36,405 nt of DNA from a virus: UHGV virus genome UHGV-0210252; one strand, written 5' to 3'. The number at the start of each line of letters is the position of its first letter. Position 1 is the stretch's first letter. The notes below the pieces were generated by a model. That model was not told the DNA's origin. It ran no database searches and worked only from the letters and a program-made list of their open reading frames with translations. Of the stretch, positions 2,949 through 34,260 are shown one piece after another. The position numbers and the translations under genes are program-made.

Positions 2949-3003
2949 AGCTGCCCTCCCGGTTTATCAGATTTCACGTAGAGTCTCCTCCACTAGTTAG
3001 TGT

Positions 3004-3049
3004 TAACCATAAAGGCCACTACATATAGTAATGACCTTGAGTCTAACAC
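3004..3049 (-). promoter_or_regulatory. RNase III-type processing hairpin (R18.5-like)
   Basis: Conserved element ATAAAGGCCAC...ATGACCTTGAGTCTA, one of three copies (also 26980-27024, 34215-34260); minus-strand RNA folds AAGGUCAUUAC/GUAGUGGCCUU; sits between genes 18 and 18.5 where T7 has R18.5. Confidence 0.55.
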
Positions 3050-27024: not shown

Positions 27025-28903
<1,879 letters not shown>

Positions 28904-28910
28904 TCACTCC

Positions 28911-29006
28911 TTATCCAAGCCTACCAGTTAGGTAGCCGATAATGCCTAAAGTTAGAATACTGATTCCTGACACAAGCACGAGTCCGTGCCACACAGTTAA
29001 CTCCAT
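28911..29006 (-). CDS. Small hydrophobic peptide (31 aa), hand-translated
   Basis: AAGGAG 8 nt upstream of ATG (29006); MELTVWHGLVLVSGISILTLGIIGYLTGRLG, a single predicted TM helix; stop TAA 28911-28913 just upstream of gene 4. Confidence 0.4.
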   Translation of the reverse strand: MELTVWHGLVLVSGISILTLGIIGYLTGRLG

Positions 29007-29055
29007 AGGTCACTCCTTAATCACAAATGCGAACAAAGGGACAGGACTCACGGTC

Positions 29056-29078
29056 CCATCCCTAAGGTGATAGTTTAG
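29056..29078 (-). promoter_or_regulatory. Variant phage RNAP promoter (phi3.8 position), TSS about 29061
   Basis: cctaaggtgatagtt at 29061-29075: two changes in the -3/-2 region (CACCTTAGG versus CACTATAGG); may be weak or non-functional. Confidence 0.5.
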
Positions 29079-29290
29079 GCTTTGAAGAACTGAGCCAGCT
29101 GGTCAGCTTTGGTATCAGCCTGACGAGCCTTCATGCCAGCTTCCAGTGACGCGATGGTAAGCTTGTCAGCCAGAGCAGCAGCATCAGCCGCACCGTCAGC
29201 AGTCTTCTTTTCTACCTTTCGTTCCAGTACCGCAGCACGACGATAACCACGCACAACCAGACGACCAAGAAATTCGATAAGTTTAATCAT
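29075..29290 (-). CDS. Small coiled-coil hypothetical protein (71 aa)
   Basis: MIKLIEFLGRLVVRGYRR...QLAQFFKA; resembles by pattern a small T7-group protein family, ortholog unresolved. Confidence 0.5.
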   Translation of the reverse strand: MIKLIEFLGRLVVRGYRRAAVLERKVEKKTADGAADAAALADKLTIASLEAGMKARQADTKADQLAQFFKA

Positions 29291-29314
29291 TGAGTTGTTC
29301 TCCTTTATAGTTTA

Positions 29315-29773
29315 TCAACCGTGGTCTGAAGTGACCAGTTCATTGGTAGACAGCCAGCGTTGCAAGTCGAAACTTGGGCACGCCTTCGGTGCTACGTCAT
29401 GGTGTGCTTTGATTTCTGCCTGAGGATACAGGGCCTTCAGGTCAGCAAGCTTGTTGCGTAGGGAGTTCATCTGGGCCGGAGTGAAGTTAGCTTCAAACTT
29501 GCCCTTAGCGTCAATTCCACCTACAAGGCAGACGCCTACAGAACGTGAGTTCCAGTCCTTAACATGTGACCCTACGACATTGACCGGTCGACCCTCTTCC
29601 ACAGTGCCATCACGCTTGATGATAAAGTGGTAGCCTACGTCCAGCCAGCCCTGCTGCTTGTGCCACATACGGATGGTCTCTACCCCGATGTCCATCTCTG
29701 GCTTGGTAGCCGAACAGTGAACGAAGATAGCGTCAGTCCTGGACCGTGGGTTGAACTGTACCTTACTTACCAT
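29315..29773 (-). CDS. Lysozyme / N-acetylmuramoyl-L-alanine amidase (T7 gp3.5)
   Basis: 152 aa; TDAIFVHCSATKP, WLDVGYHFIIKRDGTVE, GVCLVGGID, APKACPSFDL closely match T7 gp3.5. Confidence 0.92.
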   Translation of the reverse strand: MVSKVQFNPRSRTDAIFVHCSATKPEMDIGVETIRMWHKQQGWLDVGYHFIIKRDGTVEEGRPVNVVGSHVKDWNSRSVGVCLVGGIDAKGKFEANFTPAQMNSLRNKLADLKALYPQAEIKAHHDVAPKACPSFDLQRWLSTNELVTSDHG

Positions 29774-30257
29774 TGTACACCACCAGTTCTACTACCACCA
29801 GATTCAGGTGCTGGGTGAAGCGTTGTGCGTCCGTGGTGTGCATCTGGAGACGCTTATGGTTGAAGACGTGTGAGTTGCTAATCTTCACGTAAACTTCTTC
29901 AGGCTTTCCATGGACGATGAACGTCTGGCCTACACCAATCTTGTCGATTGTCAGGACTTCACGCTTCACAGTCACAGGAGGTACGCTCGAAGCTGGCAGG
30001 ACTTGAGTGGTCTGTACACCAGTGAGTTCCTCTTCTGGCTTGATTTCCTGAAGTTTGCAATTAAGTACCCATGCTCCCCACATACCATCAGGCTGAGTAT
30101 TGTAGCCGTTAGACCCATGTTTGTATGTCCCTGGAGTCTGGCACTCAACTAGGGTCATTCTTGAATCTGGTACGGGGTCCTTCTCACACTTGGTAACTAT
30201 AGTCCCACTAGGCCAGCCATACGCATCTACTAACAGTTTAAACTTCTTGCTCATCAC
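29763..30257 (-). CDS. Hypothetical protein (164 aa) inserted between endonuclease I and lysozyme genes
   Basis: Intact ORF in co-orientation overlapping both neighbours by a few nt; no motif recognised; T7 has no gene here. Confidence 0.5.
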   Translation of the reverse strand: MMSKKFKLLVDAYGWPSGTIVTKCEKDPVPDSRMTLVECQTPGTYKHGSNGYNTQPDGMWGAWVLNCKLQEIKPEEELTGVQTTQVLPASSVPPVTVKREVLTIDKIGVGQTFIVHGKPEEVYVKISNSHVFNHKRLQMHTTDAQRFTQHLNLVVVELVVYNGK

Positions 30258-30706
30258 TTAACTCCTTTCTTCTTGGGGATGAGTATTCCTGAAGGCAGAC
30301 GTACAGTCGCCTCTCGCAGCCACTCAACCGGGATGAATTTATCGGCATACTTATAGCCGTTCTTTTCGCACCATGCACCATACGTGGTCGGAGACCCTTT
30401 GTATAACTTGGAGCGGGAACTTGAGAACACGAACCGTATGTCTAACTCTGGGTGCTGTTCTCGTACCAGAAGGTGCTTCTTACGGTCATCACTGTCGAAG
30501 ATACCTTTGGTCTCGACGATGATACCGTTAGGAAGGATAAAGTCTGGTGTATACTTGTGGTCGGAAGCCGGAATCACATAGTTGATATAATGGCTTTCGT
30601 ACTCCGCTTTGACGCCGTTCTGTTCCAGCCACTGCTGGTTCTTAGCTTCAAGTCCAGAGCGGTAGGCACCCACAGAGTGCCCCCGTTTTGCAGACCATTG
30701 GGCCAT
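30254..30706 (-). CDS. Endonuclease I, Holliday-junction resolvase (T7 gp3)
   Basis: 150 aa; YVIPASDHKYTPDFILPNGIIVETKG, DRKKHLLVREQHPELDIRFVFSSS match T7 gp3. Confidence 0.92.
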   Translation of the reverse strand: MAQWSAKRGHSVGAYRSGLEAKNQQWLEQNGVKAEYESHYINYVIPASDHKYTPDFILPNGIIVETKGIFDSDDRKKHLLVREQHPELDIRFVFSSSRSKLYKGSPTTYGAWCEKNGYKYADKFIPVEWLREATVRLPSGILIPKKKGVK

Positions 30707-31404
30707 TAGAAGTCGTAATCGCCACCAGAGCCGGAGTAGTCACCACCTTCGGAACCATCGTCACCGAAGTCATCAGACCCGAAGTCACCATCAGTTGACG
30801 CTTTGTAACCAGTACCGAGGTCTTCATCATCACCCCAGCCACCATCGCCACCAGCACCATCGCCTTTCCACTCCTTCAGTTCTACCAGAAGGCAGGACTC
30901 AAGCTGGAGCTTAACGCTTGCACCAGTCGCGGCGTTCCACTTGAACGGCAGGACTTTAAACTTGACCTTCAGCTTAGACCCAGCGCCAATATTCGGGACG
31001 TCACGGATGAGTTTAGCATCGGTGTCGTAGAACCGTAATACGATAGGCTCGGACTTGCCGTCTTTAAGGTAAGACGCAAAGCATTTGAACTTCAGGGTAA
31101 CAGTACCATCACCATTCTCAATCCACGGCATATCGCCTTCACGCGGCTCGATAGGCTTCTTGCCACGCTGAACCTGAGGTGGGTTCTTCTCGTGGTCTGC
31201 GAGTGCTTTCGCATACGCATCGTCGTGAATCTTCTGTAAGACATCAATCATCTTACGGACCTTCGGGTTGCTCAGGTCGAATGTCAGGTTGACTTTGTGT
31301 TCACCACGCTCGTTGAACTTGGTGTCTGCTTTGTTCAGCCATGCGTAAGGCTCAACGATACCAGCTACCGGAGTGGTGAAAGTCTTCAGTTGCTCTTTAG
31401 CCAT
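30706..31404 (-). CDS. Single-stranded DNA-binding protein (T7 gp2.5)
   Basis: 232 aa; GSKLKVKFKVLPFKWNAATGASVKLQLESCLLVEL and acidic C-terminal tail ending in F, as T7 gp2.5. Confidence 0.92.
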   Translation of the reverse strand: MAKEQLKTFTTPVAGIVEPYAWLNKADTKFNERGEHKVNLTFDLSNPKVRKMIDVLQKIHDDAYAKALADHEKNPPQVQRGKKPIEPREGDMPWIENGDGTVTLKFKCFASYLKDGKSEPIVLRFYDTDAKLIRDVPNIGAGSKLKVKFKVLPFKWNAATGASVKLQLESCLLVELKEWKGDGAGGDGGWGDDEDLGTGYKASTDGDFGSDDFGDDGSEGGDYSGSGGDYDF

Positions 31405-31442
31405 CGGTGTAAATCTCCTAATTTAAAGTTACGAACTGGACG

Positions 31443-31465
31443 TCTGTCCTACAGTGATAGTTTAG
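31443..31465 (-). promoter_or_regulatory. Variant phage RNAP promoter (phi2.5 position), TSS about 31448
   Basis: cctacagtgatagtt at 31448-31462 (one change at -2). Confidence 0.6.
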
Positions 31466-31623
31466 GTCTCAGGACGAATCCGTCCTACCACAAACCCAGC
31501 GTCCTCATACTCTTGGGACTTAAGGGTAGCCTCTTCAAGAGACTTTGCGTACACCGGAACCTCGAAGGACTGAACGCGACCCTCAAGCTCCACGATGTAC
31601 TTCTTCTTCTCAACCTCAGTCAT
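31462..31623 (-). CDS. Host RNA polymerase inhibitor (T7 gp2), 53 aa, hand-translated
   Basis: [53 protein letters not shown]; SFEVP.YA..L.EA and AGF.V.R.RP match T7 Gp2. Confidence 0.75.
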
Positions 31624-34178: not shown

Positions 34179-34214
34179 ACTGTTAAATCTCCAGTAGTTT
34201 ACGTTAGTAGTAAG

Positions 34215-34260
34215 GGTTAATCATGAAGGCCACGACTTTGAGTCATGACCTTGAGTCTAA
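34215..34260 (-). promoter_or_regulatory. RNase III-type processing hairpin (R1.1-like)
   Basis: Third copy of ATGAAGGCCAC...ATGACCTTGAGTCTA, immediately downstream of the phi1.1-like TSS. Confidence 0.55.

What the first reader, a model, noticed from the sequence alone, without database searches (positions are those of the whole stretch)
29763..30257. Unknown 164-aa gene inserted between endonuclease I (gp3) and lysozyme (gp3.5)
In T7 genes 3 and 3.5 are adjacent. Here a 164-aa ORF lies between them, overlapping the gp3 stop and the gp3.5 start by a few nucleotides, which suggests translational coupling. No motif recognised. Middle-class expression fits a DNA-metabolism or host-interference accessory gene.
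Basis: inference. Interest (0 to 1): 0.45.

Follow-up and report, generated by a model that had tools for sequence, protein, structure and literature searches.

The report
K1F-type gp3.2 modular accessory protein
The ORF is a real gene, the already annotated but functionally unknown gene 3.2 of K1F-like (Kayfunavirus) phages; it encodes a small non-enzymatic two-domain protein whose tail domain nearly every phage of the genus keeps and whose head domain is swapped like a cassette, which hints at a host-interaction role without proving one.

Summary
A minus-strand ORF at 29763-30257 lies between endonuclease I (gp3) and the amidase/lysozyme (gp3.5), and in T7 those two genes abut. The likely start is the ATG at 30254, giving 163 aa rather than 164.

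The window is a Kayfunavirus and the ORF is gp3.2 of K1F and EcoDS1 (PHROG 16385/15211, function unknown). It is a genuine coding gene: it has a Shine-Dalgarno site, overlaps both neighbours, and shows dN/dS of 0.08 (C-terminal) to 0.53 (N-terminal).

- **Architecture:** an N-terminal SH3-like barrel (res 1-72, pLDDT about 90), a Pro-rich linker, and a C-terminal SH3-like barrel (res 99-163) with the invariant motif Y..SNSH.FN....QMHTT...RF.
- **Distribution:** the C-terminal core is in about 220 of about 227 Kayfunavirus-like records. It is absent from about 1,040 other T7 relatives.
- **Modularity:** the N-terminal slot is empty (74-aa form) or holds one or two modules from at least eight unrelated families. 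Breakpoints are sharp in genomes that are otherwise at least 95% identical.
- **What was not found:** no catalytic motif, no homing-endonuclease signature, no solved relative and no published function.

My best guess, at low confidence, is a non-catalytic binding adaptor for host interference or counter-defence. The gene is already catalogued, and interest is moderate to low.

The parts
29763..30254 (-). gp3.2 coding sequence, 163 codons plus TAA stop. The ORF as listed extends to a GTG at 30257.
   Evidence: ORF list and sequence. PHROG 16385 E 2.2e-95. 93% identity to the Escherichia phage vB_EcoP-101136BS1 protein. K1F and EcoDS1 annotate it as gp3.2.
30262..30267 (-). Shine-Dalgarno AAGGAG, 7 nt upstream of the ATG, lying inside the last codons of gp3.
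   Evidence: Read from the sequence. The same layout is tabulated for the SH phages in PMC4925675.
30039..30254 (-). N-terminal module 'N1' (res 1-72). It is an SH3-like five-strand barrel with the invariant scaffold GWPxGT..T.C..D...LVE..G..HG..G..QP.GMWG..V and 21 hypervariable loop positions.
   Evidence: AF2 block-mean pLDDT 87-94 for res 1-70. Foldseek against PDB gives SH3, PsaE, CAP-Gly and CPH domains (probability 0.8-0.9, E about 0.4, TM to target about 0.6). Entropy is 1.11 bits against 0.20 for the C-terminal part. dN/dS is 0.53 overall, 1.06 at hypervariable sites and 0.22 on the scaffold. The module is found in only 56 phage records, always next to endonuclease I.
29961..30038 (-). 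Flexible linker (res 73-98), which includes the conserved Pro-rich peptide VLPASSVPPVTVKR (res 85-98; 29961-30002). The 3' breakpoint of module swaps falls at about 30005-30020.
   Evidence: AF2 pLDDT below 50 for res 75-97. The peptide is conserved although its synonymous sites vary freely (0.40). Nucleotide identity to L002 jumps from about 0.2-0.5 to 1.0 across this point.
29766..29960 (-). Conserved C-terminal core (res 99-163). It is an SH3-like barrel with invariant Y122, S126-N127-S128-H129, F131-N132, Q137-M138-H139-T140-T141 and R145-F146.
29763..29773 (-). 11-nt overlap between the gp3.2 stop and the gp3.5 start (ATGGTAAGTAA). The gp3.5 ribosome-binding site GGTGG lies inside the last gp3.2 codons.
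   Evidence: Sequence. The same overlap is present in all related loci.
30254..30706 (-). Upstream neighbour gp3, endonuclease I. Its TGA stop shares one base with the gp3.2 ATG.
   Evidence: PF05367 E 2.8e-81..
29315..29773 (-). Downstream neighbour gp3.5, the N-acetylmuramoyl-L-alanine amidase (T7 lysozyme homologue).
   Evidence: PF01510 E 7.7e-17 and PHROG 822.
31445..31468 (-). Phage-RNAP promoter-like copy upstream of gp2.5, the probable promoter of the gp2.5-gp3-gp3.2-gp3.5-gp3.7 unit.
   Evidence: One of about 10 copies of the 20-mer that is the reverse complement of TCCCTATAGTGATAGTTTAG. No sigma-70 promoter or intrinsic terminator in 28900-31600.
29058..29081 (-). Next phage-promoter-like copy downstream, ahead of gene 4. 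It marks the end of the unit.

Best explanation
The ORF is gene 3.2 of a Kayfunavirus (K1F-like T7 relative).

What the evidence shows:
- It is a translated, selected class II gene, wedged between and overlapping endonuclease I and the lysozyme/amidase.
- The product is about 18 kDa, soluble and mildly basic. It has no catalytic motif.
- It is built as beads on a string: a fast-evolving N-terminal SH3-like barrel, a Pro-rich flexible linker, and a strongly conserved C-terminal SH3-like barrel.
- The C-terminal barrel is the constant part. Nearly every phage of the genus has it, about half of them as a stand-alone 74-aa protein.
- The N-terminal slot is a recombination cassette. It carries zero, one or two modules drawn from at least eight sequence-unrelated families.

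What I infer:
- The protein works by binding, not catalysis.
- The conserved core docks onto an invariant partner through its polar invariant patch (SNSH..N....QMHTT...R). That partner could be a phage class II protein or a conserved host machine.
- The exchangeable head recognises a strain-variable host factor.
- On this reading gp3.2 is a modular host-interference or counter-defence adaptor expressed during the DNA-metabolism phase.

The architecture and evolutionary pattern are well supported. The partner and the biological role are guesses.
For: - **Identity:** megablast gives 92-96% identity to K1F, EcoDS1 and other Kayfunavirus genomes, where the gene is annotated gp3.2. It matches PHROG 16385 and 15211.
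- **Real gene:** it has a Shine-Dalgarno site and overlapping stops and starts. The core has dN 0.046 and dS 0.46, similar to gp3. Tree-based counts give dN/dS 0.08 for the core and 0.53 for N1.
- **Fold:** AF2 predicts N1 with block-mean pLDDT 87-94 over res 1-70 and the core at 79. Both match SH3-like small barrels only.
- **Genus-wide core:** it is in 220 records, against 227 records with at least 80% identical gp3.5 and 1,268 with any gp3.5.
- **Modularity:** a search of 1.8 billion representative proteins found 16 clusters. In them the core is fused to different N-termini or stands alone. hhalign finds no homology among the modules (all probabilities below 15%). The modules occur only at this locus.
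- **Clean cassette swap:** window against L002 is 93-100% identical through gp3, the core and gp3.5, but 17-48% identical across 30270-30020. N1 has GC3 0.47 against 0.58-0.65 in the flanks.
- **Hypervariable loops on a fixed scaffold:**
- **Expression class:** phage promoters at 31445 and 29058, none inside the gene.
- **Conserved link to gp3:** even 42%-identical relatives sit directly after endonuclease I with a 4-nt overlap.
Against: - No direct functional evidence exists. There are no Pfam, NCBIfam or PADLOC hits, no sequence relative among solved structures, and nothing in the searchable literature or in two accessory-gene screen supplements.
- The fold matches are weak (E about 0.4, Z no higher than 4.9) and the SH3-like barrel is generic. 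It binds peptides, nucleic acids, metals or sugars in different families.
- Hypervariable N1 sites have omega of about 1. No single site is significantly positively selected (best uncorrected p 0.068). Relaxed constraint explains that variability as well as an arms race does.
- Core-only forms in about half of the phages show that the variable head is dispensable.
- The core can differ (79% identity) between phages whose gp3 and gp3.5 are 99-100% identical (L018), so there is no sign of co-evolution with either neighbour.
- N-terminal fusions could simply be by-products of new small ORFs landing in a gene-dense, overlapping junction.
Confidence: 0.35

Rival explanations
1. gp3.2 is a partner or regulator of the neighbouring phage DNA-metabolism proteins. 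The conserved core binds endonuclease I (gp3) or the lysozyme/RNAP-inhibitor gp3.5 and tunes junction resolution, host-DNA breakdown or the transcription-to-replication switch. Translational coupling would fix the stoichiometry.
For: The gene always lies immediately downstream of gp3 with overlapping stop and start. This holds even in the most divergent branch (Providencia phage PSTCR2 and contig L028), where the downstream neighbour differs. It is in the same class II transcription unit. The core is under very strong purifying selection, as expected for a conserved intra-phage interface.
Against: T7 and about 1,040 other relatives run the same gp3 and gp3.5 without it. Core alleles 79% identical pair with 100%-identical gp3 (L018), so there is no co-variation. 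This reading does not explain why the N-terminal head is swapped among unrelated modules.
Confidence: 0.2
2. gp3.2 is a nucleic-acid-binding protein. SH3-like, KOW, Tudor and L2-type barrels often bind RNA or DNA, so gp3.2 could bind replication or recombination intermediates, or RNA, during the DNA-metabolism phase.
Confidence: 0.12
3. The locus is a landing pad for independent small accessory genes. The core has one function. The N-terminal modules are unrelated accessory ORFs that became fused in frame only because the gp3/gp3.2 junction leaves no intergenic space, and they act independently of the core.
For: The modules are unrelated to each other. They can be stacked, as in N1+M+core proteins of 221-227 aa. 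They are joined through a low-confidence flexible linker. PSTCR2 carries separate extra ORFs in the same gp3-gp3.5 interval.
Against: None of the modules searched was found as a free-standing gene or at another locus in 50,697 phage records. The same Pro-rich linker peptide is conserved at the protein level across different module types, which suggests that the fusion itself is selected.
Confidence: 0.15
4. The ORF is a selfish or mobile element, such as a homing endonuclease like T7 genes 2.8, 3.8 or 5.3, or else a spurious ORF.
For: It occupies an intergenic-type position where T7-like phages often carry HNH genes (T7 2.8 and 3.8). It is present or absent between genera.
Against: There is no HNH, GIY-YIG or LAGLIDADG match in Pfam, PHROGs or NCBIfam. 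Both domains are small beta-barrels. The core is near-universal within the genus and under strong purifying selection, unlike sporadic homing genes. It is conserved across 255 proteins, so it is not spurious.
Confidence: 0.02

Closest known systems
gp3.2 of Escherichia phages K1F (CAJ29361) and EcoDS1 (ACF15799); PHROG 16385
   Same: Orthologue. It has the same position between genes 3 and 3.5, the same overlaps and the same N1 + linker + core architecture. Identity to the window protein is 88% for EcoDS1 gp3.2 overall; against K1F it is 72% in N1 and 96% in the core. The closest GenBank protein is 93% identical.
   Different: Only allelic differences, concentrated in the hypervariable N1 loops. 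No function is recorded for any member.
74-76-aa gp3.2 of Cronobacter phage Dev2, Citrobacter phages SH3-SH5 and many Salmonella Typhi phages; PHROG 15211
   Same: Homologous to the C-terminal core (about 77-80% identity), with the same invariant motif, the same slot after gp3 and the same 11-nt overlap with gp3.5.
   Different: These proteins lack the N-terminal module and the Pro-rich linker entirely. This shows that the core is an autonomous unit.
SH3-like small beta-barrel folds (eukaryotic SH3, PsaE, CAP-Gly/CPH, FeoA, ribosomal L2 C-domain, EF-P/eIF5A domain I, Tudor, HspQ, CarD-RID)
   Same: Predicted topology of five or six short strands forming a small barrel, in both domains.
   Different: The similarity is at fold level only (E about 0.4, Z no higher than 4.9, 5-20% identity). 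None of those families' sequence signatures are present, so membership cannot be claimed and no function can be transferred.
Phage accessory regions: variable genes between conserved flanks that are enriched in counter-defence functions (Silas et al., bioRxiv 10.1101/2023.04.06.535777)
   Same: The pattern is the same. Nearly identical flanks surround a segment replaced by unrelated sequence, with fast evolution and small proteins of unknown function.
   Different: Here the variable unit is a protein domain fused to a constant domain, not a whole gene. gp3.2 does not appear in that study's held supplementary text, and no counter-defence phenotype is known.
T7 gene 3 / gene 3.5 junction
   Same: The flanking genes are homologous (endonuclease I; amidase 69% identical to T7 gp3.5) and in the same order and class II context.
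   Different: In T7 the two genes abut with a 1-nt overlap and nothing lies between them.

Membership tests
Kayfunavirus gp3.2 (PHROG 16385 / 15211) | Significant full-length sequence match to the family profile | tested here: met
   PHROG 16385 E 2.2e-95 over res 1-163. PHROG 15211 E 6.1e-40 over res 94-163. 255 homologues, the best 93% identical.
Kayfunavirus gp3.2 (PHROG 16385 / 15211) | Position directly between endonuclease I and the amidase, with overlapping stop and start codons | tested here: met
   Window, K1F, 23 IMG/VR loci and 20 GenBank loci.
Kayfunavirus gp3.2 (PHROG 16385 / 15211) | Invariant core motif Y..SNSH.FN....QMHTT...RF | tested here: met
   Present at res 122-146 of the window protein. 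Invariant in alignments A2, A3 and A5.
Homing endonucleases (HNH, GIY-YIG, LAGLIDADG) of T7-like phages | Catalytic motif or profile match | tested here: not met
   No Pfam, PHROG or NCBIfam nuclease family matches, even at E up to 1. The predicted folds are small beta-barrels, not beta-beta-alpha-Me or alpha-beta nuclease folds.
SH3-like small beta-barrel fold | Five-stranded antiparallel barrel with structural similarity to known SH3-like domains | tested here: inconclusive
Known anti-defence proteins (Ocr, gp5.9, Acb, Tad, Gad and others) | Sequence or structural homology to a characterised anti-defence family, or a demonstrated phenotype | not testable with these tools
   No anti-defence HMM library was available. 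PADLOC, which holds defence systems, gave nothing. Literature and supplement searches found no mention. A phenotype needs experiments.
SH3b-type cell-wall-binding domains associated with endolysins | Profile match to SH3b families, and export or fusion to a lytic enzyme | tested here: not met
   No SH3_3, SH3_5 or SH3b Pfam hit. The protein is a separate cytoplasmic-type polypeptide with no hydrophobic leader (sequence; GRAVY -0.35).

The most novel reading that the evidence does not exclude
gp3.2 is a constant-anchor, exchangeable-head adaptor. The genus-wide C-terminal barrel plugs into one conserved phage or host machine. The cassette-swapped N-terminal barrels (at least eight families, stackable) each capture a different strain-specific host defence or restriction factor. 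Kayfunaviruses would then re-target a single counter-defence platform by domain swapping, much as tail fibres re-target receptors.
Probability: 0.15. Interest if true: 0.7.

Novelty: already known. Interest (0 to 1): 0.33.

Why it matters
As it stands, the finding re-identifies a catalogued hypothetical gene, so it changes little.

Its value is as a well-defined experimental target. It is small and non-essential-looking, nearly universal in one genus of T7-like phages, and absent from T7 itself. Natural near-isogenic phages differ only in which N-terminal module they carry, for example the window phage against Vec13-like L002. That is an almost ready-made swap experiment for asking whether these modules set host-strain or defence-system specificity.

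If they do, this would be a compact example of domain-level modularity in phage counter-defence. It would also help in choosing or engineering K1F-type therapeutic phages.

Tried and rejected
- **Family searches:** Pfam, NCBIfam and PADLOC scans of gp3.2 and of nine variant proteins gave no significant family. PHROGs matched only the unknown-function families 16385 and 15211.
- **Solved structures by sequence:** profiles of the whole protein, the core and N1 gave nothing below E 0.3.
- **Deep and iterated homology searches:** the family stayed at 16 clusters at 50% identity, all phage-like. No fused known domain turned up that could transfer a function.
- **BFVD fold search:** it returned only homologues and other uncharacterised phage proteins of about 75 aa.
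- **Internal duplication:** hhalign among N1, the M module, the core and four other modules gave no detectable homology.
- **Site-wise positive selection in N1:** using an NJ tree, parsimony counts and a binomial test on 31 unique genes, hypervariable sites had omega of about 1.06 but no site was significant. The hypervariable set was also chosen from overlapping data, so I do not claim positive selection.
- **DNA-level constraint behind core conservation (embedded promoter or similar):** rejected. Pairwise dS in the core (0.46) is close to that of gp3 (0.49), although a same-residue codon measure is lower in the core (0.18) than in N1 (0.37). No promoter copy lies inside the gene.
- **'RNA polymerase inhibitor' label in phage YZ1:** it belongs to the gp3.5 CDS, not to gp3.2.
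- **'Split' 72-aa endonuclease I in several loci:** this was an artefact of ATG-only ORF calling. gp3 starts with GTG there.
- **Literature:** no functional statement on gp3.2 was found. The Silas accessory-gene screens do not list it in the supplementary text held.

Full report
**1. The observation**

The window is a T7-like phage read on its reverse strand. A minus-strand ORF spans 29763..30257. Its upstream neighbour (30254..30706) is endonuclease I (PF05367, E 2.8e-81). Its downstream neighbour (29315..29773) is the gp3.5-type amidase (PF01510).

Reading the sequence, the listed GTG start (30257-30255) is followed at once by an ATG (30254-30252). AAGGAG at 30267-30262 lies 7 nt upstream of that ATG. 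Every homologue starts M-S/T-K/Q. The product is therefore 163 aa, not 164.

The gp3 stop TGA shares its A with this ATG. The gp3.2 stop (TAA, 29765-29763) lies 11 nt inside gp3.5, whose GGTGG ribosome-binding site is encoded by the last gp3.2 codons.

**2. What it is**

Megablast of 29200-30800 hits 307 phage records. The best are Kayfunavirus genomes at 92-96% identity, and K1F and EcoDS1 annotate the ORF as 'gp3.2'. The protein matches two PHROGs of unknown function: 16385 over its full length (E 2.2e-95) and 15211 over residues 94-163. It matches nothing in Pfam, NCBIfam or PADLOC. The closest database protein is 93% identical. The gene is therefore already catalogued but has no assigned function. 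Full-text searches found only a table entry for it (PMC4925675) and no functional study.

**3. It is a real, selected gene**

I compared seven loci pairwise.
- The C-terminal part has dN 0.046 and dS 0.46, a ratio of 0.10. Its synonymous divergence is about equal to that of gp3 (0.49), so conservation acts on the protein and not on an embedded DNA signal.
- The N-terminal part has dN 0.28 with saturated dS.

A tree-based count on 31 unique genes gives dN/dS of 0.08 for the core, with 32 sites under significant purifying selection, and 0.53 for the N-domain.

Ten copies of a phage-promoter-like 20-mer are present in the window. The nearest lie at 31445-31468, upstream of gp2.5, and at 29058-29081, ahead of gene 4. 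None lies inside gp3.2, and the interval has no sigma-70 promoter or terminator matches. The gene therefore sits in a gp2.5-gp3-gp3.2-gp3.5-gp3.7 class II unit.

**4. Anatomy**

The alignment of 47 homologues splits the protein in two.
- Residues 1-72 keep an invariant scaffold (G13 W14 P15, G17 T18, C23, D26, L35 V36 E37, G42, H46 G47, G50, Q54 P55, G57 M58 W59 G60) but vary elsewhere.
- Residues 85-163 are almost invariant.

On 116 sequences the mean column entropy is 1.11 bits for the N-terminal part and 0.20 for the C-terminal part. Twenty-one N-terminal positions carry 8-18 different residues and no C-terminal position does.

AlphaFold2 predicts residues 1-72 confidently (block means 87-94 over res 1-70) as five short strands. 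It predicts a disordered 75-97 segment. With a more diverse alignment, residues 85-163 reach pLDDT 79, and 89-92 over the strands.

The invariant core residues (Y122; S126 N127 S128 H129; F131 N132; Q137 M138 H139 T140 T141; R145 F146) form a dense polar cluster around the strand 2-3 and 3-4 turns and the short helix. That pattern looks like a binding patch. This is my inference.

The protein is soluble in character (GRAVY -0.35) and mildly basic (pI 8.4).

**5. Distribution and modularity**

tblastn finds the core in 220 phage records and the window's N-module (N1) in only 56. gp3.5 homologues occur in 1,268 records. Of these, 227 are at least 80% identical, and just below that break the amidase lies directly next to endonuclease I (Kvp1, CarlSpitteler, T7 and others). 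The core is therefore close to universal in Kayfunavirus-like phages and absent from about 1,040 other relatives.

A HMMER pass over 1.84 billion representatives found only 16 clusters. Two further profile searches did not enlarge the family. Within it the core occurs in these arrangements:
- alone, as a 74-76-aa protein (Dev2, the SH phages and many Salmonella phages);
- behind N1;
- behind N1 plus a second 'M' module (221-227 aa);
- behind M alone (L002, L004, L008, P0126, P0129);
- behind at least six further N-termini (P0124; P0125/P0136; P0127/P0140-44/L010/L017; P0130; P0135/PSTCR2; P0148; P0149/P0150).

hhalign detects no relationship among these modules or with the core (all probabilities below 15%). 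None has a Pfam or annotated PHROG match. N1, M and the 'YRVL' module are found nowhere else in 50,697 phage genomes.

The swap is clean at the DNA level. Window against L002 is 93-100% identical through gp3, the core and gp3.5, but 17-48% identical between about 30270 and about 30020. Against L003, which carries the same N1 family, identity dips to 52% only over the loop-coding stretch 30223-30133. N1 also has a lower GC3 (0.47) than its flanks (0.58-0.65).

The Pro-rich peptide VLPASSVPPVTVKR at the 3' breakpoint is conserved as protein while its synonymous sites vary freely.

In every locus examined the gene follows gp3 with an overlapping stop and start. This includes a 42%-identical Providencia phage and a metagenomic contig.

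**6. How it most likely works**

Shown: gp3.2 is a non-catalytic-looking, two-barrel, beads-on-a-string protein with a constant C-terminal unit and an exchangeable N-terminal unit, expressed with the DNA-metabolism genes.

Inferred: it acts by binding. The core docks on an invariant partner, and the head, where present, recognises something that differs between hosts. This is the logic of phage accessory regions, which are enriched in counter-defence genes (framework in bioRxiv 10.1101/2023.04.06.535777). I give this reading about 0.35.

Caveats:
- Hypervariable N1 sites evolve at omega of about 1.06 with no individually significant site, so relaxed constraint is not excluded.
- About half of the phages manage with the core alone.
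- The core shows no co-variation with gp3 or gp3.5 (L018).

Rivals:
- A regulator or partner of gp3 or gp3.5 (0.2). The invariant linkage to gp3 supports it. Its absence from T7 and the head swapping count against it.
- Independent accessory ORFs fused by accident at a crowded junction (0.15).
- A nucleic-acid binder (0.12).
- A homing endonuclease or a spurious ORF (about 0.02, effectively refuted).

**7. Comparison with the known, and verdict**

The ORF is a member of the gp3.2 family. Sequence, synteny and motif were all tested and met. It is not a homing endonuclease, not an NlpC/P60 enzyme and not an SH3b wall-binding module; the defining features of each were tested and not met. The SH3-like fold assignment is plausible but weakly scored. 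Homology to known anti-defence proteins could not be tested with the libraries at hand.

The gene itself is already known. The constant-core, swappable-head architecture is, as far as the searchable literature shows, undescribed, but it is an evolutionary pattern and not a demonstrated mechanism. Interest is moderate to low (0.33). The most novel reading still open is a re-targetable counter-defence adaptor, which I put at a probability of about 0.15.

Noticed in passing
window ~623, 5979, 13762, 18312, 19313, 22522, 29058, 31445, 32539, 34259 (minus strand): About ten copies of a conserved 20-mer, the reverse complement of TCCCTATAGTGATAGTTTAG. These are presumably the phage-RNAP promoters and they define the transcription units of this genome.
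   Followed up: partly
window 2994-3046 and 34208-34260; also 3031, 27006, 30962, 34232, 34245: A 53-nt direct repeat (83% identity) near both ends of the window, plus five copies of ATGACCTTGAGTCTA. They may be processing sites or promoter-flanking elements. Their function was not examined.
   Followed up: no
window 29075-29290 (minus strand): A 71-aa Ala/Lys-rich ORF downstream of gp3.5, helical in appearance and corresponding to K1F gp3.7. It is another small Kayfunavirus gene of unknown function, and its 3' end overlaps the promoter copy at 29058-29081.
   Followed up: no
L026 (Providencia phage PSTCR2) 2770-3802: Three ORFs lie between endonuclease I and the endolysin: a distant gp3.2-like protein (152 aa) and two further small hypothetical genes. 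The gp3-gp3.5 junction therefore accepts accessory genes in other Studiervirinae too.
   Followed up: partly
L011 2040-2492 and equivalents (L008, L012-L016, L022-L023); GenBank records of the SH phages and Dev2: Endonuclease I starts with GTG in these phages. ATG-only gene calling yields a truncated 72-aa 'endonuclease', as published for the SH phages, or a 139-aa one. This is an annotation artefact and not a split gene.
   Followed up: yes
window 29961-30002 (res 85-98 of gp3.2): The Pro-rich peptide VLPASSVPPVTVKR is conserved at the protein level across different N-module types, while its synonymous sites vary more (0.40) than in the core (0.18). It might be a functional peptide motif next to SH3-like domains and not merely a spacer.
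   Followed up: partly
L025 (Escherichia phage YZ1) 1489-1703: The 74-aa gp3.2 core gene is left unannotated in this record, and the gp3.5 CDS is labelled 'RNA polymerase inhibitor'. That label can mislead anyone reading hit tables.
   Followed up: yes
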